DNA from: Malacoraja senta | Lineage: Eukaryota | NCBI GenBank assembly: GCA_038087875.1 | Contig: CM075988.1 | Coordinates: 2,170,001-2,234,000, forward strand | Direction of reading: 5' to 3' | Length of the DNA: 64,000 bases | Shown: positions 5,294 to 62,153 of the stretch, in pieces | Position numbering within the stretch: the first letter of the stretch is position 1 | Layout of the letters: every line of letters starts with the position of its first letter | Made by a program: the position numbers and the translations under genes | Notes under the pieces: generated by a model | Databases searched by the model: none | Told to the model about the DNA's origin: nothing | What the model saw: the letters and a program-made list of their open reading frames with translations, nothing else

Positions 5294-5499
5294 GTTCTTG
5301 CCACCAGAGTGGAATAATTTACAGGAAAATAAATGAGAGCTGGGGATTGATGGGATTCTCTGTGGGTTGGCATCTACTCTATGGGTTGAAAGGCCTCCTT
5401 TTCTGTCAGCAGAAAATTTAAAGTTACTATGGAGTATCTACATAAGGATAAAATGAATGATCATTTAAAAATTGTACTTGATTAGGAAACCAGCATAGA

Positions 5500-5900: not shown

Positions 5901-5999
5901 GGTTGTGATTTGGTAAAACAGGCATTTATTTTAATTAGTTTACTGGATTAGACATGACTGGCTTGACATGCATTTACTTACTCCTCACAGGCCCTGAAC

Positions 6000-6250
6000 T
6001 GGGCCACTTCAGAGAGTAGTTAAGATTCAACCACATCATTCTGAGTCAGGTGCCACATGTGGGCAGATGGGGTAAGGCTCTGAAAGACAATTTGATGATG
6101 TCATGGTCAACGCAACTGATGATAGTTATTTTTGTATATTCCAGAATCATTTAAATGCTTGCATTTAAAATTCCCAGTTGCCATGTTGGAACTCAAATAT
6201 TCATGAAGATCGATAGTGCAGGATATTAATTCAGTAACTTTACCCCAGAT
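6000..6250 (-). mobile_element. Old SINE of a second family
   Basis: Reverse-complement similarity to 15520-15800 and 27360-27590. Confidence 0.5.
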
Positions 6251-8110: not shown

Positions 8111-8471
8111 GTTCTACAAGACTAAGTGGGACCCGTTGGGTCACATTCTCACACGGGAGGCCTGATCCCCCCCAACGCAATATTCCACCACTCACCCTTA
8201 GCCCCCAACGGCACAGGCACGGCTGACGGGTTCCCGTTGTGACACTCCTGATACCCCCTCACCCCCCCCCCACTCTGCCCCTTTCTCTTCAAACCCCCCC
8301 TTTAACACACACTCCATCCCCCCATCCATTCTTAGTGGTTCTCCGGCGGCGCAGCCATTCCCGCCCATTGGGTTCCCAATGTGACGTAGAATACGCAGGC
8401 ATTACTGCGCAGGCACAGCTGATTGCATGGCAAGTGGAAAAGGGATATATTAATGCTTAAAATGTGAATAA

Positions 8472-9165
8472 AGGGCCTGTCCCACTTACGTGTCCTTGGC
8501 ACACAAATTACGCAACCTCGTGGTCGCATTGAGGCGTACAGGCATCGTATGGCCGCGCGGGGCCGGTCCCATTTGGAAGCGTGGAGGGGTATGTAGTTGT
8601 GCGCGACATCGCGTGGGGTTCTGAAATTTTGTAGTGAACGAAATCTTCGTGCGCCAACGGCCTGTCGCGGAACTGATGGCTAAAGTGGGACAGGACCAAG
8701 ACCCTGGCGCGATGCAACGTCTCACCTCCAACAGCGGCAGAAGCAGGCAAACGATCACCGAACTCGGCCTGGGGCTCACGGCCGTTGCGGTCCGGATCCG
8801 CCCCCACTTATACTCTCAGAGCGGGGCCAAGAAAATTGAAGATTGTCACCAAAAGGTGGAGTAACTCAGCGGGACTGGCAGCATCTCTGGAGAGAAGCAA
8901 TGGGTGACGTTTCGGGTCAAGACCCTTCTTTTCAGACTGAAGAAGAGTCTCGACACGAAACGTCACCCATTGCTTCTCTCCAGAGATGCTGCCGGTCCCG
9001 CTGAGTTACTCCAGCTTTGTGTCCATCTTCAAATGATGTCACGCGCTCCAGACGGCTGTGCGTACGCATGTAATCGCGCCCGACCTTCGCGGGACCGTCG
9101 CGGCTCAACGTGACCATGAGGTTGCGTAATTTGCATGCCAAGGACACGTAAGTGGGACAGGCCCT
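8472..9165. mobile_element. PIF/Harbinger-like MITE inserted in the Helitron
   Basis: About 55-bp near-perfect TIRs AGGGCCTGTCCCACTTACGTGTCCTTGGCA..., flanked by TAA and TTA. The empty site aatgtgaaTAActctt is visible in the Helitron copy near 29185. Confidence 0.9.
8845..9030. mobile_element. Palindromic PLE terminal-repeat insertion with hammerhead-like motif
   Basis: Inverted pair of PLE termini centred near 8935; CTGAAGA...GAAACGTC at 8937-8964. Confidence 0.8.
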
Positions 9166-9396
9166 TTACTCTTAAAATACAACAACAATTTGAACGTTAA
9201 AGATGAGATCTATTCAGTTCAGTTCTTTCTTATTGCGTCTCTTGTTCCGTTCTGCTGCTCACTGCGTCTCGATGTCTCTTTGCTGTTGAAAAAAAAGACA
9301 CACAATTTTAATATAGACATTATTGAGGGGTCAAACTTTAACTTGAAGAAAATCTGAGAATTTACCTCAGAAGTCATCGTTCAACCAAGCACGCGT

Positions 9397-11760: not shown

Positions 11761-11764
11761 GAAG

Positions 11765-12370
11765 CGGGGGCTGTCGAGGGGGGGTGTGAGCGTCCTGCAG
11801 CTGGGGGAGGGGTATGGTTTGAGGCAGGGGCTGTCGGGAGCTGAAGAGAGGGGTGTGATCGTCCTGCAGCCGGGGGAGGGGGACGGCTTGAGGTGGGGGC
11901 TTTCGGCGGGGGGTGCTGCAGCCGAAGGAGGAGGGAGAGCGTCTGGCAGCTGGGGGAAGGGAATGGCAGCAGGCGGGGGCTGTCGGGGGGGTGAACGTCC
12001 TCCAGGCGGGGAGAGGGACGGCTTCAGGTGGGGGCTGTCGGGGGGGTGATGAGCGTCCTGCAGCCAGGGGAGGGGGACGACTTCAGGTGGGAGTCAGTGG
12101 GGTGGGGAAGCATACTGCAGCTGCGGGAGTCGGAGGGTTTCAGACAGGGGCCAGAGTGGGTGGCTTTCTGGAGGCCTAGTACAGGTGTTGTGGGCCGAAG
12201 GGGCACGTTTCTGGAGGGCTAGTACAGACATTGTTGACCGAATAGACTTTTCCTGGGCTAGTCGTGTAGCTGGGGACAGGGAGGGGGACTGCTTCAGGTG
12301 GGGGCCAGCAGGAGCATTCTGTAGCCAGGGAAGGGGGGAGGGGACGGCTTCAGGCAGCGGCCGGTTAGGG
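11765..12370. repeat. GC-rich degenerate tandem repeat (about 55-60-bp unit) inside the Helitron
   Basis: Recurrent gagcgtcctgcagc.gggggagggggacggcttcaggtgggggctgtcgg; the same unit occurs at 29280-29830. Confidence 0.8.
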
Positions 12371-12505
12371 GGGGGAGCGAGCGCTGCTGTGGCCTGCCGC
12401 TGCGTGGAGGGGGGGTGCGAGGGGAAGTGGGTGGGGGGTTATAGGCGGGAGGGGGTGTGTGGGCGGAGGTGGCAAACCGGAAGAGGACAAGATGAGAGTT
12501 TCAGG

Positions 12506-12590
12506 GACAGACAGACAGACAGACAGACAGACGGACGGACGGACGGACGGACGGACGGACAGACAGATAGATAGATAGATAGATAGATGG
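12506..12590 (+). repeat. Compound tetranucleotide microsatellite (GACA)n(GACG)n(GATA)n at the Helitron 5' end
   Basis: Direct reading. Confidence 0.95.
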
Positions 12591-12769
12591 ATATATTAGC
12601 TCAATTCAAAGCCACCACACAATGCCAGCAATGTGGGTATGGCAGCCATGCCACCTGAGGTATTTTGCAAGAGCCAACAATATGTTTCCATTTTCTCTTG
12701 CTGGCCTGGATGACAACCAGTATTGCCTGCAACAACACAGGAACAACAATCAATACTGTCTCCATTAGC

Positions 12770-13600
12770 TCAGTGGCTTGAAGAAAGCAACCATGACCTC
12801 CCAACTTCTATACTCAATACTCTGACTGATGAAGGCCAATGTGTCAAAAGCCAAGTTTTGACCACCTTATCTACCTGTGATGCCACCTTCAAGGAACCAT
12901 GTACCTGCACTCCTAGATCCTGCTGCACTACAACACTCACCAGCGCCCTACCATTCAATGTGTAGGTCCTGCCCATGTTAGACTTTCCAGCACCTCACAT
13001 TCCTCAGCCCACCTGCCCAACCTCTCAAGATCCTGCTGCAATTTTCACAATCTGCAATACAACCTACTTTTGATTCATCTGGAAACTTCTAATCTTGCCA
13101 TGTCCGTTCTCATCCAAGTCATTGATGGAGATGACAAAGTAATGGGCCAGGCACCGAACTCTGAAGCACACCACTAGTCACAGGTCTCCAGTCCAAGAAG
13201 CAACCTTCCACCATCACCCTCTGCTTCCTTCCATGAAGCCAATTTTCTATCCATTCAGCTATGTCTCCTTGGATCCCATGCAATCTAATCTTCCAGAGCA
13301 GCCTACCATGCAGAACCTCGTTGAATGCTTTGCTGAAGTCCTACATCTACATCTACAGCTCTGCGTTCATTTTTGGTCACATCGTCAAAAAAATCAAATC
13401 AGATTTGTGAGACATGACTTCTCACAAACAAAACCATGTTGTCTATCCCTAATCAGCCCTTGTCCATCTAAATCCATGTGTATCCTATCCCTCAGAATAC
13501 TCTTTAGTAACTTTCCGACTACAGATGTTAAGCTCACTAGCCTATAGTTCCCAGCATTTTCAATGCAGCCCTTCTTGAATAGAGGCACAACATTGCCACC
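12770..13600 (-). mobile_element. CR1 LINE RT fragments
   Basis: NVVPLFKKG..NYRLVSLTSVVGKLL..QHGFVCEKSCLTNLI; QDLGVQVHGSLKVASQVDKVVK. Confidence 0.88.
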
Positions 13601-13684
13601 CTCCAGTCTTTTGGCATCTCTCCGGTTTTCAATGACGACAATGTTTATAATATTACTTTTAATCGGTAGTAATGAAAGAAAAAA

Positions 13685-14315
13685 CTCAACGCTAGCATTT
13701 ATTTCAAGAGGGCTTTTATACAAAAACAGGGATGTTATGTTCAGGTTCTAAGGTCGGATTTGGAATATTATGAGCAATTCTGGGCACCATATCTCAGGAA
13801 GGATGTGCTGGCTCTGGAGAGGGTCCAGAGGAGGTTTACAAGAATGATCCCAGAAATGAGTAGGTTAACCTATGATGAGCGTTTGTCAGCACTGGACCTG
13901 TACTCGCTGGAGTTTAGAAGAATGAGGGGGAACCTAATTGAAACATACAGAATAGTGAAAGGCTTGGATAGAGTGGATGTGGATAGGATGTTTCCACTAG
14001 TTGGAGAGTCCAGGACTAGAGGTCATAGCCTCAGAATTAAAGGACATTATTTTAGGAAGGAGATGAGGAGCAATTTCTTTAGTCAGATGGTGGTGAATCT
14101 GTGGAATTCTTTGCCACAGAACGCTGTGGAGGCCAAGTCAGTGGATAGTTTTAAGGCAGAGATAGATAGATTATTGATTAGTACAGGTGTTAGAGGTAAT
14201 GGGGAGAAGGCAGGAGAATGGGGTTAGGAGGGAGATAGATCAGCCATTATTGAATGACAGAGTAAACTTGATGGGCCAAATGGCCTAATTCTTCTCCTAT
14301 TCCTTTTGACCTTAT
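13685..14315 (+). mobile_element. CR1 LINE 3' end
   Basis: ORF 13760-14227 (EYYEQFWAPYLRKDVLALERVQRRFTRMIP...TRGHSLRI...VVNLWNSLP) followed by the CR1 tail. Confidence 0.92.
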
Positions 14316-15312
14316 AATGACAATTTTATGGCCTGTATAAACAATCTCATTTGTGCCATGTTGAAGTCCAAAGATTAATTGATTATAAAAATGAGTTTGG
14401 GTAATTGTGAGGCAGAGTTACCTCACATGTGTTCTTTTTGTTGTCAGCAATAACAGCAGATCTCGATTTACTCAGTAAGTTTGAGTTTAAAACTCCAATC
14501 AATCTCCTCTTCTGATTGTTGAATCTGATAATTTTCATTTCAATTTGTGGTCACAGAATGTTTCATTAACTGGATAATCTGGGATGCAGCAATCCAACTT
14601 TGACCCCAATCATGATGTGATCTGGAGGAAAAAGTAGCACACATGTTTGTAACAATTAGCAATTGAAACTCATGGTTGTTGTGCGGTGACCATCATTCTG
14701 CTGGACATGAGAATGTCCATGCAATTATCAATGGGACTGGAGAAGTTCCAAACAATTGCTTAGTGGAACTTCTCAGCTACCAATACATTGGACGTTAAAC
14801 AGCAGGTTGTGCTAGTTACTTTAATTAACTGTGCTAGTATTTTAGATGTCTCCCTCCATGATCACGCTGATCTTTTGTGACAGTGTGGTTGTCAAAGACT
14901 TCAAGGTCATGGCTTTGTGTGATCACCAGGCCTTTGAAAGACAAATTCAAAGGATTTTCTGCAGCACTGTTGGCTCAGTACAACTTCAACTGAGATCAGA
15001 GGTACTGTGACTGGAATTGAAGCTCACATGAGCTCCCAGCTGCATTAACCCAACTAATTGCTCAGGGAGAGAAACTCCTTGCACTTCCTGCATAAATCAG
15101 GGCTCCAGTGTGGAGCCCTTTATGGAGAATCTTGGCAAATCTGCATGCCAAAGTTGCCTGCTGCCCAATGAGAAGGAGGTGGACTCTCTGATAAAAGAGA
15201 CTTTGTTATGTCCTGCACGCAAATGTTGACCACAAACTGTCAGAACCACAGGCTACTTGGTGTCAGAGTGATCTACTCACCACAAGCAGAGCACAACAGT
15301 CTACATCTCATG

Positions 15313-15423
15313 GTACACAAAAATGCTGGAGAAACTCAGTGGGTGCAGCAGCATCTATGGAGCGAAGGAAATAGGTAACGTTTTGGGCCGAAACCCTTCT
15401 CGCCTCCAAAAAAATGATCCCCC
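15313..15423 (-). mobile_element. Short PLE terminal insertion
   Basis: PLE terminus flanked by a 16-bp duplication CAGTCTACATCTCATG (15297-15312, 15424-15439). Confidence 0.85.
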
Positions 15424-15519
15424 CAGTCTACATCTCATGATGCCTCTTCTGTTTTCAGTGCTCCATGCTCCTGGTTCATGCTGCAAACCCAGTGATACTG
15501 CTACCACAATCATTGTCCT

Positions 15520-15800
15520 ATCAGTGTCAAGCATCCACAGGCCAGGTCCAATGATCTAGAGACACAAATTCAAATCCCACTGTGGGAGCTTGGAATTCAT
15601 TTGCTTGAATAATCTGCAATAATCTAATGCTTGCATTGGTTATAGTGATCATGAAGTTGCTGTTCATTATTTAAACCAATCTAGTTCACTCAAGCACCTT
15701 CATTGAATAAATCCTGTTGCATTCATATAACTCTAGTCCACTGGAATAAAGTTGACTCTTAAGTGCTGTCTGGAATTGCCCAAAGTAGAAGGTACCAAGA
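15520..15800 (+). mobile_element. Old SINE of the second family
   Basis: B-box-like ttcaaatcccac and body motifs (tctagttcact...gttgactcttaa) shared with 27360-27590. Confidence 0.55.
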
Positions 15801-15840
15801 TTTGCAAGATGAACTACAGTGCTTCAAATAAGCTGCAAGC

Positions 15841-15942
15841 CTACCCCTACCCCTCCCCCCCTCCCCCTACCCCTACCCCTACCCCTACCCCTACCCCTAC
15901 CCCTACCCCTACCCCTACCCCTACCCCTACCCCTACCCCTCC
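15841..15942 (+). repeat. (ACCCCT)n hexamer microsatellite, i.e. (TAGGGG)n on the minus strand
   Basis: Direct reading; G-quadruplex-prone on the minus strand. Confidence 0.95.
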
Positions 15943-16231
15943 ATGCTCTCTGCTCACTCTCTGTGACTCCCTTACTGCTAAATTATTCCCTATTCCTTTT
16001 TATACCTGAATTTCAAAGGCAACTATGATTTCCCTGTTGATATCCTAATGGCAAAATCTGCAGGTTTTTAAAATTGCACATTCTTTCAACAATAGGGTGG
16101 TCAATGTTCGGTGTGGACTTGGTAGGCTGAAGGGAATGTTCCAGCCTGTACCTCTATGATGCTAAATGCTGAGTAACCAGCACTGAGTACACAAGCTGCT
16201 TTCAGTTTAGATATCTGACCTTTGATCGTGA

Positions 16232-16872
16232 AATCATAATCATAATCATAATTTGTTAGCCAAGTATGTTTTGCAACATATGAGGAATTTGATTTGCCAT
16301 ACAGTCATACCAAAAAAGCAACAAGACACACAACTACATACAATTTGACATAAACATCCACCACAGCAGCTCCTCCACATTCCCCATGTGATGGAAGGCA
16401 ATAAAGTCTTATCTTCTTTTCTCTTGCGGTCGGGGGAGTCGAACCATCCACAGTCATTGAAGCTCCTGCAGCTGGCGATTGGAGTTCCCGTGTTGTGGGC
16501 GATCGAAGCCCCTGCGATCGGGACGGTCGAATCTCCCAAAGTCGGTCCCTAACCAGGGACCGCGAGCTCCACGATGTTAAGTCTGCAGGCTCCAGTTGGA
16601 ACTCCCAAAGTCGACACCCAGCAAGAGGCCGCCAACTCCATGATGTTAGGCCGCAGTGCAGACGGAGATACGACACGGAAAAAGTCGCATCTCCGTCGAG
16701 GAAAGTGATTTTAAAAGGTTCCCCCACCCCCCCCCCCCCCCCCCCCCACACACATTGTACAAAACTAAAGATTCACTAAAACATCAATTTTACAACAAAC
16801 TAAAAACAACAAAGAAGAAAAAAAGACGAGACGGACCGTTGGCGGGGCAGCCATCGTCGGCGCCACCTGGTG
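16232..16872 (-). mobile_element. Non-autonomous GC-rich retroposon with Rex1-like 3' tail
   Basis: Family motifs GGAGATGCGACTTTTTCCGTGTCG and CCTTCCATCACA..TGTGGTGGATGTT; (TTATGA)n terminal repeats. Confidence 0.8.
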
Positions 16873-17531: not shown

Positions 17532-20500
17532 TGGCCAAAAGATGGCCGCGCCATTGTGTTTGGCTGCCCGTCTTCTCCTGCCTGAACAAAGACCCGTTAA
17601 AGGTAATCTCTACCGTTCGTATGGCCTGCAGTCAAAGCTAGCGTACGAACGGCAAACATTATTGAATATACAAGCCTCGGTCATCGAGGTCTTCACCCGA
17701 GGCCCCGCACCGAGCCCCGGACGAAGCCCCGCACCGAGCCGAGCCTCTGTCGTCGAGATCTTCATCCGCGGCCCCGGACTAGACCCCGGACTGAGCCCCC
17801 GACTGAGCCCCGGACAAGACACCGGACTGGGCCTCCGATAGAGCCCCAGACTGAGCCCCGGGCTGGGCCCCGGACTGAACCCCCGACAGACCCCCGGACA
17901 AGGTTTCACTTACCGTTCGCTCCTCGCTCGGCTCCCGGTGGATGTATGGGCTCGGCCTTGTGGTGGCCGCCGCACGCGCCGAGCCTGGAGGCGGGGTAAA
18001 CGCGCGGGCGCCCTGGTAAGGCTGAAGAACCTCGCCCACGCCCATTTAACATCTGCTTACCTCACCCAGCGCTCTGAGGACGGGCCTGGTCGGCTCTACC
18101 GCTCCATCCATCGGCGGTCCCTCGAGCCCAGGTATGCCTTTCTCCGGTCGATCCTCCCGGTCCCCTGTCTCTCGGCACGCGGGCTCCCAGCCAGGCCCTG
18201 TGTGAAGCGCAGCGGCGTGGTCTCCCTGAACCTCCGCCCGCTGGCGTGGGAGCCACTACCATCCCTAAACTCACCTGCAGTCCCTGCAAAAGTGGCCCTG
18301 ATAAATGCAAGATCAGTGCTGAATAAAACCTTCGTCCTCAATGACTTCTTCACCGCACGTGGATTGGACTTCCTACTGATCACTGAAACCTGGCTTAATC
18401 CTGGTGAGCTTGCTCAACTCGTGGAACTCTGCCCTGATACTTGTAACTTTTTCAGCTCGCCCAGGCTCTCAGGTCACGGTGAGGGCCTAGCCACCGTGTT
18501 TAAGAAGAATTTCAACTGCCGCCTTCTGAACACTGATCACGTCTCCAGTTTTGAACATCAACTAATCATAGTTGGTCTAATCTGTCCGCTTTTAATTGTT
18601 CTTGTGTTTCGCCCACCAAAGATGCATAAGGACTTTATCTCACAATTTGGTGACCTTATTGCTAGCTTGTTGCCCAAATTTGACCAGGTCCTGATTCTTG
18701 GTGACTTTAACATTCATGTTTGCTGTCCCACGAAGCCTCTTGTGAGTGAATTTATGAACCTGGTTGAGACCTTCAATCCATCTCTACTCACCACTGGACC
18801 CACGCACAAGCTTGGCCATACACTAGACCTAGTGCTTTCGTCTGGTCTCCCAACTTGTAACACAGATATTATTGATGCCTGCCTGTCTGATCATAGTGCT
18901 ATTATATTCGATATATCTCTGCCTTTCTCTCCCTCAAACTCCCATCTCCCTGCTCGCTACTCCCGCTACGTTAACTCCACGACGGCCAGTAAGTTCTCTG
19001 AGGTTCTCATAGCCACCCCCGACATCTGCACTATTGAGGCGTCCACCCCCCATCTCAGTACCGACGACCTCATTTCTTTATTCAATAATACCTGCTCTTC
19101 CGTCCTGGATTCTGTTGCTCCTCTTAAAATGAAAAAGCCTAAGCCTAAAGGCGAGCCGTGGCTCAATGATACCACCAGAGCCCTAAGAAGAGATTGCAGA
19201 AAATCAGAACGGAAGTACAAATCTGATAAGCTTCAAATTTCCTTTGAAATCCTGAAAAATAATCTTCACAAATACCAGGAAGCCGTAAAATCTGCAAGAA
19301 CTAAATATTTTTCCACCCTTATCTCCAAAAACGCGCAAAATTCCAAGGTCCTCTTTAGCACCATCACCTCCATCATCTGTCCTGCCACCAGCACCAGCCT
19401 AACTGGGTCCCCTGCTAAGTGCGAGGAATTTACCACATTTTTCACCAGCAAGGTAAAGAACATAAGAACAAATATTTCCCCTCCCACCCGTGACCTGGCT
19501 GTCTCATTGGTCTGCTCTTCAAAATTAGACTGTTTCCAACCCGTTACTCTACCCTCCCTTGTAAAATTCATCACCACCATGAAACCTACTACCTGCCCCC
19601 TCGACACTGTCCCCTCTGCCCTCCTAAAGGACGTCATTACAACAGCTGGTCCCAGCATCCTCGCCATCTTCAATAGCTCTCTAGCCACTGGCACTGTACC
19701 TACCTGCTTCAAGCATGCGGTGGTCCAACCACTCCTGAAAAAACCTAACCTCGACCCCACCTTGCCAAGCAACTACAGACCCATTTCTAAACTGCCTTTC
19801 CTCTCAAAAGCCCTTGAAAAGGTAATTTTAAGTCAACTTATACCTTACCTTCACCAAAACACTATCTTGGAAACTTTGCAATCAGGTTTCAGGGCTCACC
19901 ATAGCACAGAGTTTGCCTTGTTGAAGGTACACAATGACCTACTGCTCACCGTTGACTCCGGCGACTGTGCAATTCAGCCCCTTCTTGACCTCAGCGCAGC
20001 ATTTGATACTGTGGACCACACCATCCTAATTGACCGTCTCCGGTATGGGGTTGGTATTGATGGCACTGCCCTGAGCTGGTTCATCTCCTACCTCAAAGGT
20101 AGGAGTTTCTCGACTAACATAGGCAACTCTTTCTCCTCCCCAGCTAATCTCTGCTGTGGAGTTCCACAAGGTTCCATCCTTGGCCCCATTCTCTTCTCCC
20201 TGTATATGCTCCCCTTAGGCCAAGTCATTGAAAGGCACGGCATTTCCTTCCATTGCTACGCAGACGATACACAACTCTATCTCCCCCATAAGCCCAAAAA
20301 ACAATCAAATCTGTTTAACCTTACCCACTGCCTCGAGGATATAAAGTGTTGGATGGCCCAAAACTTCCTCCAACTAAACGAGAGTAAGTCTGAGGTCATC
20401 CTTATCGGCCCCTTGGACTCAATCAAAATGATAGCAGGCAGCCTTGGAAGCCTTACCCCACTACTCAAACCTCACGTCAAAAATCTTGGTGTGATATTTG

Positions 20501-21226
20501 ACACAGCACTGAAATTTGACAAACAAGTCAATGCCGTGGTAAAAGCTAGCTTCTTTCAGCTTCGGACAATAGCTAAAATAAAACAATTCCTCCAGTTTGA
20601 TGACCTCGAAAAGATCATCCACACATTCATCTCCTCCCGCCTAGATTACTGCAACTCCCTTTACACTGGCATCAGCCAATCTTCCCTGTCCCGCCTGCAA
20701 CTGGTCCAAAACGCCGCAGCGAGGCTCCTGACGGGCACCCGAAAAAGGGACCACATCACCCTGATCCTGGCCTCTCTCCACTGGCTCCCTGTGCGGTTCC
20801 GTATAAACTTCAAGATCCTCCTCCATGTCTACAAAGCCCTCAATGGGCTTGCCCCCACCTACATTAAAAGTCTTCTCACCCACCACTCCACCTCCAGGCC
20901 CCTCAGATCGGCCGACTTGGGGTTGTTGAATATCCCACGGTCTAGGCATAAGCTCAGGGGCGACTGCGTCTTTGCGGTTGCAGCCCCTAGACTGTGGAAC
21001 AGCATCCCCTTTCCCATCAGAACTGCCCCCCTCCATCTACTCTTTTAAGTCAAGACTAAAGACTTATCTATACTCCAAAGCCTTTCCTGACGTCCTCTGA
21101 GTGAGGGCTACATGTATATATGTATGTAGTTTGTTTTGTTTGTGCTATTCTTATAACAAATGTAAAGCACTTTGGCCAACGAGAGTTGTTTTTTAAATGT
21201 GCTATATAAATAAATGTGACTTGACT
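17532..21226 (+). mobile_element. Near full-length L2 (LINE-2) retrotransposon
   Basis: APE+RT ORF, L2-type 3' end tgtaaagcactttg...aaatgtgctatataaataaa with short terminal repeats, GC-rich 5' region. Confidence 0.95.
17938..21048 (+). CDS. L2 ORF: AP endonuclease plus reverse transcriptase (1036-aa open segment; probable true start ATG 17542)
   Basis: LINARS, ITETWL, ILGDFN, LDLV, SDH (APE); [39 protein letters not shown] (RT); [19 protein letters not shown]. Confidence 0.93.
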
Positions 21227-24870: not shown

Positions 24871-26704
24871 TCTATATAATTAAAAGTGTCATCTTGACCA
24901 CTTCCTGTCTGCGCTGTATATTGATTTTGGAAAAAAACACTACCATATATCACTATAATTTTTGACCATCTTACTCACAGTCCTCCTCCGCTGAGCAGGC
25001 CCTGAGGATTTTTCCCATCGATGAAAAATAAAAAAGTTATGAGTGTTTAAAAAACCATGAGATCCTCTCGCCTGTCAATTGCTACAATGAAGGTAACGCC
25101 TCTTCTGGAGGGTGGGGCAGGACTATAAAACCCCGGATGCCTGGACATGACTCAGTCACTCTGCAAGATCATGAGGGAGAGGCCACGACTCTCATTCTAA
25201 CCTGTGAAGTTCTCAACTGAACTGTGAGTCTGCAATGTACTTGCAATAAATGATTTGTTAGCACTTAATGAAAATGCAATGAGCTGTTTGGCCTGCCCTG
25301 TGCTTGAAACTGCAATGGCAATGGAAATGAAATGAAAATGCAATCAGCTGTTTGGCCTGCCCTGTGCTTGAAACTGCAAAGACAATGGAAATGAAATGAA
25401 AATGCAATCAGCTGTTTGGCCTGCCCTGTGCTTGAAACTGCAAAGCAAATAGAAATTAAATGAAAATGCAATGACCTGTTTGGCCTGCCCTGTGCTTGAA
25501 ACTGCAATGGCAATGGAAATGAAATGACAATGCAATGAGGTGTTTGGCCTGCCCTGTGCTTGAAACTGCAATGGCAATGGAAATGAAATGACCATACAAT
25601 CAGCTGTTCGGCCCGCCCTGTGCTTGAAACTGCAATGGCAATGGAAGTGAAATGAAAATGAAATGAGCTGTTTGGTCTGCCCTGTGCTTGAAACTGCAAT
25701 GACAATGGATGTGAAATGAAACTGCAATGAGCTGTTTGGCCTGCCCTGTGCTTGAAACTGCAATGGAAATGGAAATGAAATAACAATGCAATGATCTGTT
25801 TATCCTGCCCTGTGCTTGAAACTGAAATGGAAATAGAAATGGAAATGAAATGAAAATGCTATGAGCTGTTTGGCCTGCCCTGTGCTTGAAACTGCAATGG
25901 AAATGGAAATGAAATGATAATGCAATGATCTGTTTGGCCTGCCCTGTGCTTGAAATTGAAATAGAAATGAAATGAAATGAGTTGTTTTGGCCTGCCTGAA
26001 ACAACTAATTTCGGCTCACAAGACTCCTATTAACCGAGAAACCAGTCCCTTTTGCCCAAAATGCCCCTATTAGCCCAGGAGGAGCATTTTAGCCCAAAAA
26101 CCGTGCCAGGCCAGGAAAAGTCCAGAAAAGGTGCCTTTCACTGAGACTTCACTGAGATTTATTTTTAAAGAGCCCCTTCATCCCATCAGGCCTGTACCAG
26201 CCCAGGAGGAGTCCCTTTGGCCCATCAGTTAATATTCCCCCTGCAAGTATTAAAACTAACCCCAGTATTTTTCTCCCTCCATTCATTGGCTCACTGTGAG
26301 ATCCAGGCCAGGATAGACTTTCCTCCTTCATTGCTGTGATCTGCAGAAAAAGAGATGAAAAATGTCTAAAATTGATTCTCCTCCCTCTCCCCTTCTCTCC
26401 CACAGAGCCTCTAACCTGTTTTGGGCAAAATTGCTGGCATTTTCTGAGCTGCCAGCCCACCAGGCCTGAGTGACTGAGCTGCCAGCCCACCAGGCCTGAG
26501 TGACTGAGCTTCCAGCCCAAGAATCCATTCGGCCACAATGTCAATACTATCCCTCTGGAAACCAGACCCTTCGGCTCACAACATCCATACTAGGGCTGCA
26601 GAAAGCCCCCCGCCCCCCTCTGGCCACCAAAGACATGGAATATTATGTTGGGGGACTAGCCATCCCATGTGAACATGGGACCCAAAGTGTCCCACTTAGT
26701 CTAG
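24871..26704 (+). mobile_element. Complete non-autonomous Helitron
   Basis: A|TCTATATAAT 5' end; 3' hairpin GGGAC..GTCCC then CTAG|T. No TSD. Removing it restores the flanking old CR1 (gtgctta|taatcttt). Confidence 0.92.
25265..26000 (+). repeat. About 64-bp minisatellite (about 11-12 copies) inside the Helitron
   Basis: Unit gcaatgagctgtttggcctgccctgtgcttgaaactgcaatggcaatggaaatgaaatgaaaat. Confidence 0.95.
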
Positions 26705-34997: not shown

Positions 34998-36626
34998 GGT
35001 AGACAAAAATGCTGGAGAAACTCAGCGGGTGAGGCAGCATCTATGGAGCGAAGGAATAGGTGAAGTTTCGGGTCGAGACCTTCTTCAGACTGATGTGGGG
35101 GTGGGGGGGCGGGAAGAGGAAAGGAAGAGGCGGAGACAGTGGGCTCTACCCAAGCAAAATATGAGGTGCTGCTTCTCCAATTTGTGGTGGGACTCACTCT
35201 GGCCATGGAGGAGGCCCAGGACAGAAAGGTCGGATTCGGAATGGGATGGAGGTGTTGGGCGAAGCCATCGCCAAGCCTGCGCTTCGTCTCACTGATGTAG
35301 AGCAGTTGGCACCTAGTTGGCACCTAGAACAGCGGATGCAATAGATGAGGTTGGAGGAGGTGCAGGTGAACCTCTGCATCTCCTCCAACCTCATCTATTG
35401 CATTCGCTGTTCAAGGTGCCAACTGCTCTACATCGGTGAGACCAAGCACAGGCTTGGCGATCGCATCGCCCAACACCTCCGCTTAGTTCGCATTAACCAA
35501 CCTGATCTCCCGGTGGCTCAGCACTTCAACTCCCCCTCCCATTCCAAATCTGACAGGCAGCATCTCTAGAAAGAAGGAAAGGGTGATGTTTTAGATCAGG
35601 ACCCCTCTTCAGAATAGAGTCAGGGGAAAGGGAAACAAGAGATATAGATGGTGATGTGGAGAGATATACTGTTGAACAAATAAATGAAAGATATGCAAAA
35701 AAGTAACGATAATAAAGGAAGCAGGCCAATGTTAGCTGTTTGCTAGGTGAGAACGAGAAGCTGGTAAGACTTGGGTGGGGGAGGGATGGAGAGAAAGGGA
35801 ATGCAGGGGTTACTTGATGTTAAAGAAATCAATAAAGAAGGATCTCGACTTGAAATGTCACCCATTCCTTCTCTCCAGAGATGCTGCCTGCCCCGCTGAG
35901 TTACACCAGCATTTTGTGTCTATCTTCAATATTCATACCACTGGGTTGTAAGCTGCCCAAGCGTTATATGAGATGCTGTTCCTCTAATTTGCATTTAGCC
36001 TCACTTTGACAATGATGGATGCCTAGGACAGATAGGTCAGTGTGGGAATGGGAATTTAAGTGTTTGGCAACCACGAGATTAGGTAGGTCCAGGTGGACTG
36101 AGCAAAGGTGTTCAGCGAAACAATCGCCAATCTACGTTTGGTCTCGCCGATGTATAAGAGTCCACATCTTGAACAACGGATACAGTAAATGAGGTTGGAG
36201 GAGCTGCAAGGGAACCTCTGCCTAACCTGAAAAGACTGTCGGGGTCCCTGGACAGAGTCGCGGAAGGAGGTACAGGGACAGGTGTTGCATCTCCTGCGGT
36301 TGCAGGGGAAGGTACCTGGGGAAAGGGTGGTCTGGGATGAGTTAACCAGGGAGTTGCGGAGGGAACGGGCTCCGTAGAAGGCGGAAAGGGATAGAGATGG
36401 GAAGATGTGACTAGTGGTGAGATCCCATTGAAGGTGGCGAAAATGTTGGAGGAATATGTGTTGTATGCGACGGCTGATAGGGTGAAAGGTAAGGACTAGC
36501 GGGACTCTGTCCCTGTTGCGACTAGGGGGAGGGGTCGCAAGGGCTGAGCTGCAGGGTACTGAGGAGACATGTGTGAGGGCCTCAACCATGATGGAAGAGA
36601 GGAATCCCCATTCCCTAAAGAATGAG
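34998..36626. mobile_element. Cluster of PLE fragments in alternating orientation (GIY-YIG region)
   Basis: Several NLIYCIRCSRC..YIGETK copies; fold-back junction at about 35345-35400; ORF 36056-36589 (-). Confidence 0.9.
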
Positions 36627-36685
36627 CTTGGAAAATCTCGTGATGGGCCTGATGTGCCCCGCGGGCCATATTTTGGAGACTCCTG
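36627..36685 (-). mobile_element. hAT (Charlie-like) terminal fragment
   Basis: Minus strand starts CAGGAGTCTCCAAAATATGGCCCGCGGG, a typical CAGGGGTCTCCAAA..GGCCCGCGGG end. Confidence 0.65.
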
Positions 36686-36919
36686 CCTTACAAGAACAAA
36701 AACAAAAATGTACAGAAGTATAAAAATTGATGACTTTATTATTGTGGTAAGTATAGATCTATTAAAAAAAATCTAATAACGTTCTAATGTACCGACAAAC
36801 CTAATTTCCCAATGATCGTTGATGGGGGAACAGAAAATAACATTTTCAGGACAGAATAACATCGACAGCAAACAATAATATTTCAGGACGCAATAACATC
36901 GACAGCAAACAATAATATT

Positions 36920-38412
36920 AAATAGGGTCTCAAAGCCCTCCGTTTCTTCCTCGACCGGAGAATCAACCAATCTCCGTCTACAGATACTCTCCTCCGCCTA
37001 GCGGAGCTGGTCCTTACCCGTAATAACTTTTCGTTTGACTCCTCCCATTTCCTCCAAATACAAGGCGTAGCTATGGGCACGCGCATGGGCCCCAGCTATG
37101 CCTGCCTCTTTGTAGGGTACGTCGAACAATCCTTGTTCGAGACGTATCAGGGCTCCATCCCCGACCTCTACCTCCGCTACATCGATGACTGCATTGGTGC
37201 TACCTCCTGCACGCACACACAACTCACTGACTTCATCCATTTCACCACTAACTTCCATCCGGCACTCAAATACACCTGGACCATTTCCGACACTTCCCTA
37301 CCATTTCTTGACCTCACTATCTCCATCGCAGGTGATAGACTTCTGACCGACATCCACTATAAACCCACTGACTCCCATGGCTATCTAGACTACACTTCTT
37401 CCTACCCTGCTTCCTGTAAGGATTCCATCCCCTACTCCCAATTCCTCCGTCTACGCCGCATCTGCTTCCAGGATGAGGTGTTCCACACCAGGGCAAAGGA
37501 GATGTCCTCATTCTTCAGGGAACGGGGGTTCCCCTCCCCTACTATAGATGAGGCTCTCACTAGGGTTTCTTCCATACCCCGTAACACTGCTCTCTCTCCC
37601 CATCCCCTCACTCGTAACAAGGGCAGAGTCCCCCTAGTCCTCACCTTCCACCCTATTAATCGTCACATACAACAGATAATCCTTCATCATTTTCGCCACC
37701 TCCAACGTTACCCCACCACTCGCCACATCTTCCCATCTCCTCCCCTGTCTGCTTTCCGCAAAGACCGCTCCCTCCGTAATTCCCTGGTCAATTCGTCCCT
37801 TCCCTCCCGTACCACACCCTCCCGGGCACTTTCCCTTGCAACCGCAAGAAATGCTACACTTGTCGCTTTACCTCCCCCCTCGACTCCATTCAAGGACCCA
37901 AGCAGTCGTTCCAGGTGCGACAGAGGTTCACCTGCACCTCCTCCAACCTCATCTATTGCATCCGCTGCTCTAGATGTCAGCTGATCTACATCGGTGAGAC
38001 CGGTGATCGCTTTGCCGAACACCTCCGCTCGGTCCGCAATAAACAACCTGATCTCAGCACTTCAACTCCCCCTCCCATTCTGAATCCGACTTTTCTGTCC
38101 TGGGCCTCCTCCATGGCCAGAGTGAGGACCACCGGAAATTGGAGGAGCAGCACCTCATATTTCGCTTGGACAGTTTATACCCCAGCGGCATGAACATTGA
38201 CCTCCAATTTCAGGTGGCCCTCACTGTCTCCTCCCCTTCTCAGCTCTCCCTCAGCCCTCTGGCTCCTCCTTTTCATTTCTTCTTCCCGCCCCACACCCCC
38301 CCCCCCCACCCTACATCAGTCTGAAGAAGGGTTTTGGCCCGAAACGTTGCCTATTTCCTTCGCTTCATAGATGCTGCCTCACCCGTTGAGTGTCTCCAGC
38401 ACTTTTGTCTAC
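36920..38412 (+). mobile_element. 5'-truncated Penelope-like element (RT, GIY-YIG and terminal repeat)
   Basis: GVAMGTRMGPSYACLF, YLRYIDD, FLDL, YKPTD, SIPYSQFLRLRRIC; frameshifted GIY-YIG; flanking duplication CAATAATATT (36910-36919, 38413-38422). Confidence 0.95.
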
Positions 38413-38429
38413 CAATAATATTTCCTCAC

Positions 38430-38521
38430 CTTTCGTTGTTATTGGGGAACCTGAAGAAAGACAGGTAGGGTCGTCTACATTGGTGATTAGAGCAATTTAT
38501 AGCAGAACAGTGAGGTTTCAC
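38430..38521 (-). pseudogene. THAP-domain first coding exon (THAP12/PRKRIR-like), GTG at the initiator position; remainder not found
   Basis: VKPHCSAINCSNHQCRRPYLSFFRFPNNNE+AG|gtgagg: C-x4-C, SFFRFP and a phase-2 donor inside the Arg codon. Confidence 0.75.
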
Positions 38522-39055
38522 GCAGTCGAGGTCACGACCCGTGACCCGTACTGTTGCCACACAACGCCAACTGGAGTACACGCGATGAACTCGGTAAACA
38601 TTTACTATGGCTGCCAGCACAGCGGGCCCTTCTTCTGGCCCAGCATCCAGACTGGTTGCACACTGGACCGTCTATCCCCGCGGCCGGGGGTGGGGTGGGG
38701 GGAGGAGGGATCCGGGGGGAGGTTGTGGGGGAGGAGGAGGGGGTCGGGGGGAGGTTGGGGGAGGAAGAGGTTGGGGTGTCAGTGCAGCACGGTCAGTGAC
38801 TCTGGGTGGACGGAGGGAGCAGACCGCCTCCAACTTTGCTGCCCCACCCAACCCAGCCACGCTCCACCCAGCCCCGCTCCACCCGGCCCCGTGTGTGGGC
38901 GCTGCCGACCCACAGCCCCTGACAGTGCAGCCCACAGGGGGAGACGGGGCGGAGAGCGGCCGTGGCAGGACAGCGCTGACCCCGGGGGGAGGGTGGGGGC
39001 TGTCCCGAGGGATGCGCTCCTTCAGCCGCTTACACCTTGGTGCTCAGGTTCAGAG

Positions 39056-39580
39056 CAAAGATACTAGAGCATTTGATTCTGTGCGCTCAGTCACCCCCAA
39101 AAAATAACCCCACAAAATTGCAATCAAATTGCTCTGACTTTGAGTTCGCTTTGACATGGCGAAGGCTTATCGAGATGGTGCTGTCTCTCTGGACACGACA
39201 ATGAATGCGGCTATTAGTCGCGGATTGTAAAACACGCTACACCATGAGATAACACCAGTTTAAACATGATACCTTCCCGCTTTCAATGACAGCACCCACA
39301 ATTATTTACAGCGCAAAAAATGATTATTTCGACGTTTTTTAATAGGAAAGTACGCGTTTCGTGGGTTAATGTGTATACCGAGGCCGCCATGTCCTCCACA
39401 TGGATTGAACTGCTCCGAGCGTCACGCCCTTTGACCCGATGACCTTACGTGCAACCCCCCTATAGATGTCGAAGCCATGACAGTATCGAGGCAGCCCATT
39501 AAAATGGCGCCAACAACCACCCATGACATATGACACTTTTTTCACCGAGTGGCGTATCTTGCTCCGCTCTATTATCTTTG
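39056..39580. mobile_element. TIR MITE with CAAAGAT termini (P- or hAT-like)
   Basis: TIRs CAAAGATACTAGAGC and (rc) CAAAGATAATAGAGC; no matching TSD. Confidence 0.7.
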
Positions 39581-39669
39581 AGCACAAGTGGGGCGTGCCA
39601 GAGTCGGAGTGCGCGCTGACGTGTCTGGTGGTGCCTGGGACGTTGCGGGGCGGACAGTGCGGTGCTGAG

Positions 39670-40050
39670 CAAAGATCCTATAGCAAGCAAGATAGTGCAC
39701 TCGACAAAAAAGACGTAGTACGGTCATGGGCAGATTCATGGGTAATTTAAGTCCCCATTTCCATAACCGGCTTCCGTCTCCGCACCAAAGATCCCATGGA
39801 TATTAGGTGCGGAGATGGAAGCCGGTTACGGAAACATCCTAAAATAAAAGTTATTTGGTAAAAATCTTCTCCTCATTTTCAGAATTGTAATTTATTAACA
39901 CAAACTGTTCCCCCGCAACGTTGATTACACTGCGAGTCGGGTCGGGTTACGGAAGTGGATGAAAAAAAGGCCCTCGTTCCGTTGCGTACAACACGTCAGC
40001 CCATTGCATTGAGCAGGAGTGGTCTATCTTGCTCCGCTATCGGATCTTTG
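39670..40050. mobile_element. TIR MITE with CAAAGAT termini (P- or hAT-like)
   Basis: TIRs CAAAGATCCTATAGCAAGCAAGATAG and (rc) CAAAGATCCGATAGCGGAGCAAGATAG; exact 8-bp TSD GTGCTGAG; internal hairpin of about 28 bp at about 39759-39832. Confidence 0.9.
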
Positions 40051-40074
40051 GTGCTGAGAGTGCAGAGTACGGGC

Positions 40075-40218
40075 TGACGTCACGGACGTGGAGTGCGGTG
40101 CGCGCCAGCGGCTTGGGCGGCGTGGTGACGTGCGTGTTGACATCATAGCCAGGGCGGGCCGGGGTGTACGTTTTGACGTCACAAGCGGGGCGGGGCGGGG
40201 CGGTGCGTGATGACGTCC
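40075..40218 (+). promoter_or_regulatory. Cluster of CRE/ATF sites and GC boxes
   Basis: TGACGTCA at 40075 and 40174; TGACGTG at 40126; TGACGTCC at 40211; tandem GGGGCGGGG at about 40187-40202. Confidence 0.75.
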
Positions 40219-40299
40219 TTGCGAGGGCGGGGAGTGCGTGTTGGCGTTATGGCCGGGGCGGTACTGTACGTGCTTACGTCCCGGCTAGGGCGGGGTGTG

Positions 40300-40406
40300 C
40301 GTGCGGCGGTGCCGGCGGCCGGGACTTGAGGCGGGCGGGCGGCGACGACGGCATGCAACCGCTACGGTGTGGCCGGATCTGCTGAGGACCGAGGCAGCGG
40401 ACAGAG
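40300..40406 (+). other. Probable 5'-UTR first exon of an unidentified + strand gene (start approximate), with uORF MQPLRCGRIC* at 40353-40385
   Basis: Downstream of the CRE/GC boxes; donor GAG|gtacgg followed by a G-rich, intron-like stretch. Confidence 0.5.
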
Positions 40407-41429
40407 GTACGGCCTGTGCGCAGCGGCAGCGGCCGTGGCCTGGAGCGGATCACGGACTCCGGCAGCGAGGCGGTGGGAGAGCTGGTGCCGCGTGAGGGAA
40501 AGGCGAGAGCGGGCGGGAGGGGAGCGGCGGCGCCGGCGTGAGGGCTGGCGGACACAGCGGGCGCGGGCGGGGGGAGACACAGCGAGGGCGGGCGAGGGGG
40601 AGACACAGTGAAAGGGGAGACACGGCTGGGATGGGGAGATACTTCTGGGAGCGGGGAGTAGGGCGGGAGCGTGGATGAAGCAGGGAGGTATGGTGGAGCG
40701 GTGAGGGGGTGCCACGCCTGGTGTTACTTGGTGGGGTTGGCGACTATGGCGAGCATGAGGGGAGGGAACACAGAAAGGTAGCGAGGTGAGGACAGGTTGT
40801 GGGGGCGAGGTGAGGGAATTTGGAGGAGGGGACTGGGCAACGGGGCAGGGAGGGGAGTACAGGAGAGGAGTAAAGGGCGGGGGATGAGGGGTGACAGGTG
40901 GGGCGGGAGGGAACGAGGCAGGGGGACATGGCGGAGGGGTAAGAGGGCGGTACGGTGGGAGTGAATGTGGGGCACTGCAGGTGTTACTTGGGGTTGTTGG
41001 CGAGTGTGAGTTAGTGGTGAGTGAGTGTGATCTAACTTGGCATACACCAAGATGACTTGGGGTAAGCTACTGGTAAAATTGGGTGAAGCAAGAATAGGGG
41101 AATGACCGACATCTGTTGTCAATTGGTTAACCGGAGGAGCTGAAGATAAAGACGGGCTGAATGTGCCTGTTGTGGGAAGGATTGTAATGTATAGAGTATA
41201 AGCCCGGGCGGGAGGGTAGGTGGTGTGATTAATGATAGTTGTGAATCAGTGGCCAGGGATGTGAGCATGTCTTGTTTGATGCTTAGATGCCAGCCTTGGG
41301 AAAGGGTTTACACTGGCTGTTGGCTGGTTATGGGTGGTGGGCTTGCTGCCTCAAGAGTGTGATCCAAATCTCCATGGTTTTCTACAGGATCTGTCATTCT
41401 AGTGTAAAATGCGATAACTGTATGGTGCA

Positions 41430-60405: not shown

Positions 60406-62153
60406 CCATGTGGTTGAAGTGCACATTTGACAGATTTTGATAAAGGTCATTTTTATACATTTTGGTTTCACCATGTAGAAATTACATAGTCCCCCCATTT
60501 CAGGACCTATTAGGAGCAGACGAGGGCATTCGATCCAATTTGAGATACCAGCTACCAAGACGGGTGTGTACAGGAATTCATTCTTCCCCTGCACAATTAA
60601 AGCATGGAATAATGTTCACCCTACCATAGTTACTCAACCAGACACAACTAAATTTAAGGCAGCTCTTCTCCAAGAATCTTTTTTTGCTTAAGTCCACCTT
60701 CCGCCACCTCCAGTTTAAATTCCATTTGGAATATTTTGGAGGACCAAGAACCAGGGCATCATAATGTCTGGGATACAGTAATGCCATGTAAATGAGAGTA
60801 GTCATGTTTAGTATTTTGTTGTATATCCTTTGCATGCAATAACTGCTTGAAGTCTGCGATTCATGGACATCACCAGTTGCTGGGTGTCTTCTCTGCCAGG
60901 CCTGTATTGCAGCCATCTTTAGCTTATGCTTGTTTTGGGAGCTAGTCCCCTTCAGTTTTCTCTTCAGCATATCTTCAGGCATGCTCAATTGGGTTCAGAT
61001 CGAGTGATTGACTTGGCCATTCAAGAATTGACCATTTTTTTACTTTGGAAAAACTCCTTTGTAGCTCGAGCAGTATGTTTGGGATGATGTGGAATGAACT
61101 GCTGGCCAATGTGTTTTTTTGAGGCATTTATTTGAACGAGCAGATAGGATGTGTCTATACACTTCAGAATTCATTATGCCACTACCATCAGCAATTGTTT
61201 CATCAATGAAGATAAGCGAGCCAGTACCTTCAGCAGCCATACATGCCCAGGCCATAACACCCCCACCACTGTTTTTTTTCAGATGAGGTGGTATGCTTTG
61301 GAGCTTGGCCAGTTCCTTCTCTCCTCCTTACTTTGCTCTTGTCATCACTCTGATATAAGTTAATCTTTGTCTCATCTGTCCACAAGACCTTTTTCCAGGA
61401 CTGTGGTTGCTCTTTTAAGTACTTCTTGAGAACTGTAATCTGGCCATCCTATTTTTGCAGCTAACCAGTGGTTTGCATCTTGCAGTATAGCCTCTGTATT
61501 TCTGTTCATGACAGTGATCATTGACAAATCCACACCTGACTCCTGAAGAGTGTTTCTGATCTGTCGGACAGGTGTTTGGGGATTTTTCTTTATTATAGAG
61601 AGAATTCTGTCATCGGCTGTGGAGGTCTTCTTTGGCCTGCCAGTCCCTTTGCAATTAGTAAGCTCACCAGTGCTCTCTTTCTTCTTAGTGATGTTCCAAA
61701 CGTTGGTTTTGGTAAGCCTATGGTTTGGCTGATGTCTCTAACAGTTTTATTCTTGGTTCTCAGTCACATAATAGTTTCTTTGACTTTTATTGGCACAACT
61801 GTGGTCCTCGTGTTGATAAACAGCAATAAAAGTTTCCCATGGTGAAAAAATGACTGGAAGAAAGACTAGATGCTGAGAGCTTTCTTATACCTGCATTAAG
61901 GAGGCAATTAAACACACCTGAGCAATTACAAACACCTGTGAAGCCATGTGTCCCAAACATTATGGTGCCTTGAAAATGGGGAGACTATGTATAAACACAG
62001 CTGTAATTTCTACATGGTGAAACCAAAATGTATAAAAATGACCTTTAATAAAATCTGACAATGTGCATTTTAACCACGTGATTTTTTTTCTATTACAAAT
62101 CTCAAATTGTGGAGTAAATAAATGGGTCTTTTTCCCAAACATGGAGGGCACTG
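60406..62153 (-). mobile_element. Tc1/mariner element with long IR/DR-type TIRs and decayed transposase
   Basis: Terminus CAGTGCCCTCC flanked by TA (62154-62155); long inverted repeat 60406-60505 vs 61965-62080; MAWACMAAEGTGSLIFID and WPSQSLDLNPIEH. Confidence 0.9.
60508..60752 (+). mobile_element. LINE 3' fragment (CR1 group) inserted in the Tc1 TIR
   Basis: SRRGHSIQFEIPATKTGVYRNSFFPCTIKAWNNV; the Tc1 TIR resumes at about 60753 (agggcatcataatgt). Confidence 0.75.

What the first reader, a model, noticed from the sequence alone, without database searches (positions are those of the whole stretch)
38430..38521. Orphan THAP zinc-finger exon with GTG where the initiator Met should be
Seen: the minus strand reads GTG-K-P-H-C-S-A-I-N-C-S-N-H-Q-C-R-R-P-Y-L-S-F-F-R-F-P-N-N-N-E-AG|gtgagg inside a CpG island. 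There is no in-frame ATG back to the upstream TAG (about 38674). Known: THAP domains start M-x3-C-x4-C...F-P, and human THAP12 starts MPNFCAAPNC..LAFFRFPRDPAR. Inference: either a THAP gene with a non-AUG start, or a dead THAP12-like gene or transposase that lost its ATG. It is the only host-like coding signal I found.
Basis: partly seen in the sequence, partly recalled or inferred. Interest (0 to 1): 0.7.

Follow-up and report, generated by a model that had tools for sequence, protein, structure and literature searches.

The report
Broken P-element transposon THAP exon
The zinc-finger exon is the decayed front end of a P-element-type jumping gene; its real ATG lies about 950 bases upstream, cut off by a second transposon that happens to supply the GTG, so this is an ordinary relic and not an unusual start codon.

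Summary
The sequence is as described (GTG-KPHC…FRFP, donor at 38430/38429; Pfam THAP E 0.0086, below cut-off; family profile E 5e-14). The non-AUG reading fails. The closest relatives are THAP-bearing P-superfamily transposases, present as many dispersed copies in skates, with Met usually 9 residues before the first Cys and never 3 (0 of 23). The true start is ATG 39478 (M-A-S-T-S, the only such match in the window), 102 bases inside a P-like terminal repeat at 39580. Contigs in 3 of 3 DNA runs join 39463 directly to 38514, so uninterrupted copies lack the 948 bases between. That insert is a high-copy element, and the GTG lies in its terminal repeat. A contig of a related organism carries the same insertion junction, so the break is old. 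A Penelope-like retroelement sits in intron 1. Exon 2, the Cys-x-x-His half of the finger and the transposase are absent from the window. A sister MITE (39670–40050, perfect 8-bp target duplication) lies next door, beside a single-copy CpG promoter. The RNA test was uninformative because its control was empty. Verdict: nested transposon relic, low interest.

The parts
39670..40050 (.). MITE A: non-coding P-like element, 381 bp, terminal inverted repeats of about 33 bp starting CAAAGATCC, internal hairpin 39758-39834
   Evidence: TIR alignment; perfect 8-bp target duplication, the only 0-mismatch pair; very high summed contig depth in 3 of 3 DNA runs and 50-60 contigs with unrelated flanks before 39670; the leader of Amblyraja THAP protein P0006 matches 39726+ best of 127,918 positions, score 44 against 29
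40051..40058 (-). 8-bp target site duplication of MITE A (CTCAGCAC); second copy at 39662-39669
39547..39580 (-). 5' terminal repeat of the THAP-bearing P-like element B
   Evidence: 28 of 34 identical to the MITE A end; an organism-E contig spans it and the single-copy spacer (X8 record 23)
39479..39546 (-). 5' untranslated region of the transposase gene
   Evidence: residues 1-21 of Leucoraja P0020 match -39529 best of 127,876 positions, score 37 against 26
39463..39478 (-). true start: ATG 39478-39476 and codons M-A-S-T-S, the first part of exon 1
   Evidence: only exact MASTS in six frames; joint 39463/38514 in contigs of X8, X5 and X6
38515..39460 (.). nested high-copy element C, short imperfect terminal repeats, target site TATA at 39461-39464; left end slightly trimmed; superfamily not established
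   Evidence: skip of 948, 34 X5 contigs run on unlike after 39464, X8 head-to-tail junction 39446->38522; end alignment only moderately above shuffles, 19 of 1000
39056..39270 (+). piece D nested in C, with one P-like end (CAAAGATAC)
   Evidence: joints 39058->39271 and neighbours in 3 DNA runs
38519..38521 (-). the GTG of the finding: part of element C's terminal repeat, not a start codon
   Evidence: lies outside 38414-38514, the stretch matched by family contigs (X5 record 1 and X6 record 9); inside the aligned C end
38430..38514 (-). rest of transposase exon 1: H-C-x4-C…F-F-R-F-P, the N-terminal third of a THAP domain
38413..38429 (-). phase-2 donor GTGAGG and start of intron 1
   Evidence: family contigs match down to 38413 and then diverge
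36920..38412 (+). Penelope-like retroelement fragment inserted in intron 1, with the same 10-mer on both sides (38413-38422 and 36910-36919)
   Evidence: weak RVT_1 (E 0.16) and GIY-YIG (E 0.047) matches; the class name rests on these weak hits and on recall
40051..40560 (+). single-copy CpG-rich promoter-like region with tandem CRE/GC-box units and a donor at 40407; probable host gene on the opposite strand (not identified)
   Evidence: depth about 42 from one 1456-base contig with 0 differences (X5 record 8)

Best explanation
This is the 5' end of a dead P-superfamily (THAP9/P-element type) DNA transposon. Shown: its terminal repeat (39580), leader and ATG (39478) are intact; a 948-base stretch of repeat DNA lies between codon 5 and the rest of exon 1; the GTG belongs to the end of that insert; intron 1 is broken by a retroelement; nothing 3' of intron 1 is found in the window. 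Inferred order of events: (1) a P-like element inserted just upstream of a host CpG promoter, the known target preference of P elements; (2) element C inserted at a TATA site within exon 1, and a small deletion trimmed its left junction and about 7 exon bases; (3) piece D, MITE A and the Penelope-like fragment were added, and the 3' part of the transposon was deleted or moved far away. A transcript from the old promoter would give an 18-residue peptide from ATG 39478 and would pass 8 more ATGs before the GTG. No zinc finger can form, since only 2 of the 4 zinc ligands are encoded. The exon most likely does nothing.
For: Relatives are THAP proteins with P-transposase HTH, RNase H and GTP-binding domains: P0011 overlaps the P-type transposases P0040 and P0041 at 74-77% identity over about 100 residues, and contig L001 carries THAP exon 1, exon 2 and the transposase in one stretch. 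At least 7 annotated Amblyraja copies lie on contigs of 7 different lengths. Exon bin summed depth is 3,995-16,866 against about 42 for the single-copy promoter in X5, with 17-28 contigs per run carrying another letter at one site. Joint 38514->39463 appears in one contig each of X8, X5 and X6; the 9 letters between in X5 keep the frame and give M-A-S-T-S-x4-H-C, the family's commonest spacing. Two tests independent of the contigs point to 39478 and 39529. X8 record 22 (39421-39564, 7 differences, 1 gap) spans the C/B junction, so organism E shares the break. No exon 2 by tblastn with 42 relatives or by two profiles; the sensitivity control found 20 of 20 copies mutated at up to 50%. 8-bp duplication at the sister MITE; 8-bp duplications and promoter preference are P hallmarks (PMC7776569, PMC10983969, passages).
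Against: Element B has no right end and no matching target duplication in the window, so its own insertion signature is not shown. Each run gave only one contig for the key joint, with 20, 26 and 44 letters on the shorter side, and the tool warns about short sides. The terminal repeats of C are short and imperfect (19 of 1000 shuffles scored as high). The tables were truncated (100 letter rows, 138 joints and 1234 loose ends not shown). No genome was held, so exon 2 beyond 38 kb downstream is not excluded. The leader of P0038 did not rank 395xx among its top 4 matches. The donor and the exon frame are still intact, which a strict relic does not require.
Confidence: 0.92

Rival explanations
1. 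Splice rescue and exonisation. A divergent transcript from the CpG promoter starts at ATG 39478, uses a cryptic donor inside element C (39448, phase 0) and an acceptor at 38671 or 38662 (phase 0), so that most of C is removed as a new intron. The half-THAP exon is then joined at 38430 to distant host or transposon exons.
For: A CAC|GTAAGG donor at 39448 and two in-frame AG sites exist. The frame from 38671 to the donor has no stop. Annotated skate gene models fuse this family's THAP exons to host-type coding regions (P0008, P0039 with TRIM B-box; P0038).
Against: The acceptors are weak (8 and 4 pyrimidines of 15). No GT-AG joint was among the 15 joints shown, and none at 38430. No exon 2 in the window. 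The fusion proteins are automatic gene models at other loci.
Confidence: 0.04
2. Functional THAP gene with a non-AUG start at GTG 38521 (or at the in-frame ACG 38542).
Against: Both codons lie in inserted element C. The family spacing is x3 in 0 of 23. The real ATG is found upstream. An out-of-frame ATG at 38601 opens a 27-codon frame whose stop overlaps the GTG. The exon is multi-copy and has no exon 2 in the window.
Confidence: 0.015
3. Pseudogene of host THAP12 (PRKRIR) or of a hAT-type THAP transposase that lost its ATG by point mutation.
For: Several relatives are named '52 kDa repressor of the inhibitor of the protein kinase-like'.
Against: The names are similarity labels; the domains that follow the THAP in this family are P-type, and no listed relative shows a hAT domain. 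The ATG is not mutated. Human THAP12 itself was not compared, as no call supplied it.
Confidence: 0.015

Closest known systems
P superfamily DNA transposons (Drosophila P element; zebrafish Pdre2/THAP9)
   Same: N-terminal THAP domain, then HTH, RNase H and GTP-binding domains in the family's transposases; intron-containing gene; terminal repeats; 8-bp target duplication at the sister MITE; insertion at a promoter (PMC7776569, PMC10983969, passages).
   Different: This copy keeps only the 5' end and exon 1. The terminal repeat sequence differs from Pdre2's CATACCTGTCAAC (PMC10983969). The THAP has a Ser/Thr-rich leader of about 9 residues.
Dispersed THAP/P-transposase fragments annotated in Amblyraja radiata and Leucoraja erinacea (P0006, P0008, P0011-P0013, P0018, P0020, P0038), with relatives in Priapulus, Myxine, pipefish, moray eel, Octopus and Diadema
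   Same: 68-80% identity over the exon-1 peptide; same leader; homologous 5' region.
   Different: Those models include THAP exon 2; this copy has its start separated by element C and no exon 2.
BuT5, the MITE partner of a Drosophila repleta-group P element (PMC3698922, passages)
   Same: Non-coding element sharing ends with a P transposon and flanked by 8-bp (or 9-bp) duplications, as MITE A does.
   Different: BuT5 is about 1 kb with 3-bp TIRs; MITE A is 381 bp with TIRs of about 33 bp.
Human THAP12 (PRKRIR)
   Different: A single-copy host gene with a hAT-type C-terminus (recalled); the window's family is multi-copy and P-type.

Membership tests
P superfamily transposon | N-terminal THAP domain | tested here: met
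   First third in the window; complete in relatives, E about 1e-17
P superfamily transposon | P-type transposase (HTH, RNase H, GTP-binding insertion) in the family | tested here: met
   P0040 and P0041 pass all four Pfam cut-offs and overlap P0011 at 74-77%; L001 links THAP and RNase H on one contig
P superfamily transposon | Transposase encoded by this copy (autonomous element) | tested here: not met
   No hit in the window beyond exon 1; it is a remnant
P superfamily transposon | Terminal inverted repeats | tested here: inconclusive
   Element B has a left end only (39580), 28 of 34 identical to MITE A, which has both ends
P superfamily transposon | 7-8 bp target site duplication | tested here: inconclusive
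   Met for MITE A; not found for element B, whose right end is missing
P superfamily transposon | Dispersed multiple copies | tested here: met
P superfamily transposon | Cut-and-paste activity | not testable with these tools
   Needs an excision assay
Complete THAP domain | C2CH motif plus W, F, P and AVPTIF box (10.1101/2021.02.01.429122, passages) | tested here: not met
   Only the first two Cys and the Pro are encoded; exon 2 is absent from the window
THAP12 / hAT-type THAP | hAT-type C-terminal domains in the relatives | tested here: not met
   Domain lists show P-type or TRIM domains only
THAP12 / hAT-type THAP | Orthology to THAP12 by tree or synteny | not tested
   No THAP12 sequence came from a call and no genome was held
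Non-AUG-initiated gene | Near-cognate codon at the family's start position, with no AUG start available | tested here: not met
   GTG is in the insert; the ATG is at 39478
Non-AUG-initiated gene | Spliced mRNA and initiating ribosomes | tested here: inconclusive
   6% of one RNA run read; low two-way depth, no donor joint shown, control exon empty; no ribosome profiling available
Sola2-like (for element C) | Short TIRs with 4-bp AT-rich duplication (PMC3627910, passages) and a Sola transposase | tested here: inconclusive
   TATA target and short ends fit, but no transposase was identified and the left junction is trimmed; not filed

The most novel reading that the evidence does not exclude
Element C has become a new spliceosomal intron (donor 39448, acceptor 38671 or 38662) that reconnects ATG 39478 to the THAP half-exon in a divergent transcript of the host promoter. 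The locus would then be one of several places where skates recruit the THAP exons of a horizontally spread P-element family into host transcripts, as the TRIM and other fusion models suggest.
Probability: 0.04. Interest if true: 0.55.

Novelty: new member of a known kind. Interest (0 to 1): 0.12.

Why it matters
The locus itself matters little: it is a worked example of how a nested insertion can fake a non-AUG start. The by-product has modest value. Skates hold a high-copy P-element family with MITEs, whose THAP domain is 70-76% identical to a priapulid protein over the aligned lengths and sits in an unresolved group with hagfish, octopus, teleost and urchin sequences, which suggests horizontal spread. 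Annotation pipelines label its fragments as THAP or PRKRIR-like host genes. My paper searches listed no description of this family in skates, but Repbase and Dfam could not be searched and may already hold it.

Tried and rejected
No whole genome was held. Word-based protein search with the 40-residue piece found nothing. PDB sequence search gave only THAP1 at E 2.2. RNA run X11 (about 6% read): exon depth 3.0 and 1.6 in the two directions, most reads 90-95% alike, no joint or loose end at 38430 among those shown; the control promoter exon had no reads, and DNA run X8 of the same organism also lacked it, so this says nothing on expression. X5 is identical to the window at the promoter and may be the same species or source, so it is not counted as an independent orthologue. 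My first guess, that the out-of-frame V-V-T-S-T-A upstream of the GTG was a frameshifted leader or that ACG 38542 was the old start, was dropped after one search placed both inside element C. Pairing ends 39580 and 39056 as one element failed: no shared duplication. The P0038 leader scan did not rank 395xx. Pfam scan of 75 non-repeat plus-strand frames found no host gene (0 of 75). The THAP tree of 20 rows had only 2 well-supported branches, so horizontal transfer is suggested, not shown. A weak tblastn hit of P0042 at 11121-11032 (E 0.003) was not found by the closer relatives or the profiles and was set aside. Earlier scan notes: nothing. The THAP/non-AUG paper search returned mostly repeat-translation papers, none relevant by title (listing only). 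No structure or complex prediction was run, as a 28-residue fragment would not be informative. Supplements were not read.

Full report
Verdict. The exon is real and THAP-like, but it is the broken first exon of a P-superfamily transposon. Its ATG is present at 39478, and the GTG comes from a second element inserted between the two.

Observation. Pfam gives THAP at E 0.0086, 17.3 bits, under the 23.9 cut-off, over model positions 1-27 of 87. A full HMMER search found 8 proteins at E<=0.001. The exon itself is not in the CpG island (GC 0.42, o/e 0.54); the island is 40051-40600.

The family. Named relatives come from Priapulus, Myxine, a pipefish, a moray eel, Amblyraja and Leucoraja. A second search gave 30 proteins, six more from Amblyraja on contigs of different lengths. 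After the THAP domain these proteins carry the P-element HTH. P0011 overlaps P0040 and P0041 at 74-77% over about 100 residues, and both pass the cut-offs for the P-type HTH, RNase H N, GTP-binding and RNase H C domains. Contig L001 holds THAP exon 1, an intron at the same position and phase, exon 2 and the transposase. In the 23 relatives showing the motif (of 37 held), Met lies 0-15 residues before the first Cys, 9 in 8 cases and 3 in none. The premise that the GTG sits at the Met position came from THAP12 spacing and does not hold for this family.

The real start. Laying three DNA runs and one RNA run on 38372-40560 at 90% likeness showed everything from 38372 to 40050 to be repeated DNA: summed depth 3,995-16,866 on the exon bin, against about 42 on the promoter in X5. 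Depth is no copy number, but 17-28 contigs per run carry another letter at a single exon site. One contig in each of X8, X5 and X6 joins 38514 to 39463, skipping 948 bases. With the 9 letters that X5 has between them the frame is continuous and reads M-A-S-T-S-x4-H-C from ATG 39478, the family's commonest spacing. Two longer contigs match only 38413-38514 and stop there (X5 record 1, X6 record 9). Independently of the contigs, MASTS occurs once in the six frames of the window, at -39478, and residues 1-21 of Leucoraja P0020 match -39529 best of 127,876 positions, 37 against 26. A like test with P0038 did not rank this site. The ATG lies 102 bases inside a terminal repeat at 39580 that is 28 of 34 identical to the end of MITE A.

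The insert. 38515-39460 is high-copy; 34 X5 contigs run on into unrelated sequence after 39464, which marks an element end with a TATA target; an X8 contig shows a head-to-tail junction of its two ends. The ends align as short imperfect inverted repeats (19 of 1000 shuffles as high). GTG 38521 and the in-frame ACG 38542 lie in this element's left end. The left junction lacks a few bases of both elements, which I infer to be a later small deletion. X8 record 22 spans the right junction with 40 and 104 bases on the two sides, so organism E shares the insertion and the break is old. The superfamily of C is open; short ends with a 4-bp AT-rich target would fit Sola2 (PMC3627910, passages), but no transposase was seen.

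What is left to translate. From 39478 the window gives 18 residues and a stop. Eight further ATGs precede the GTG; the last opens a 27-codon frame whose stop overlaps it. Sixteen bases into intron 1 a Penelope-like fragment begins, with the same 10-mer on both sides. No exon 2 or transposase is found in the window by tblastn with 42 relatives or by two profiles, whose control recovered 20 of 20 copies mutated at up to 50%. The exon encodes 2 of the 4 zinc ligands of the C2CH motif (10.1101/2021.02.01.429122, passages).

Setting. MITE A (39670-40050) has terminal repeats and a perfect 8-bp duplication, and the leader of Amblyraja P0006 matches inside it best of 127,918 positions, which ties it to the same family. 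Next to it is a single-copy CpG promoter facing away. P elements make 8-bp duplications and favour promoters (PMC7776569 and PMC10983969, passages), and have MITE partners (PMC3698922, passages). The cluster fits that habit.

Limits. Element B's right end and duplication are not in the window; each key joint rests on one contig per run; the tables were truncated; no genome was held. The RNA run was read to about 6%, gave low two-way depth and no donor joint among those shown, and its control was empty, so expression is untested. A cryptic donor at 39448 and weak in-frame acceptors at 38671 and 38662 leave splice rescue formally open, at about 4%.

Novelty. A decayed member of a known superfamily. 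Paper searches (listings) showed no account of this family in skates; repeat databases were not available. THAP genes are known to arise repeatedly from P transposons (PMC10027918, passages). The THAP tree leaves skate, priapulid, hagfish, octopus, teleost and urchin copies in one unresolved group with short branches, which suggests horizontal spread but does not show it. Interest 0.12.

Noticed in passing
window 40051-40560 (+): Single-copy CpG-rich promoter with five ~36-bp units carrying CRE-like and GC-box motifs, and a donor at 40407: probably the first exon of a host gene on the plus strand. No Pfam hit in 75 downstream frames, so the gene is not identified.
   Followed up: partly
proteins P0008, P0039, P0038 (Leucoraja gene models): The family's THAP exons are annotated as fused to a TRIM B-box/coiled-coil region (P0008, P0039) and to a coiled-coil C-terminus that looks MORC-like from recall (P0038, 95% identical to Amblyraja P0011 over 199 residues). 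Could be real exonisation or gene-model artefacts.
   Followed up: no
proteins P0002, P0011, P0003, P0022, P0004, P0007: Skate, priapulid, hagfish, octopus and teleost members are unusually close (72% over the whole of P0002 for P0011), which suggests horizontal transfer among marine animals; the tree is unresolved.
   Followed up: partly
window 39758-39834: A 37-bp-arm hairpin inside MITE A that contains a third copy of the CAAAGATCC end; the MITE folds far below shuffles (z -11).
   Followed up: partly
window 36620-36665 (-): Short stretch resembling the end of a hAT-type MITE (recalled motif), at the point where the presumed intron 1 continuation ends.
   Followed up: no
window 17842-21048 (+): A 1068-residue open frame with endonuclease and reverse transcriptase motifs, an apparently young LINE (class by eye).
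   Followed up: no
window 9397-10011 (-) and 61372-61737 (-): Helitron-like PIF1 helicase fragment and Tc1-like transposase fragment (names by eye from recall).
   Followed up: no
window 25265-26000: Tandem array of ~57-bp units with varied lengths.
   Followed up: no
L001 229-3860: 5' three quarters of a distantly related intron-containing P element in a metagenome contig, with a second copy of its 5' end in L002 at a different flank.
   Followed up: partly
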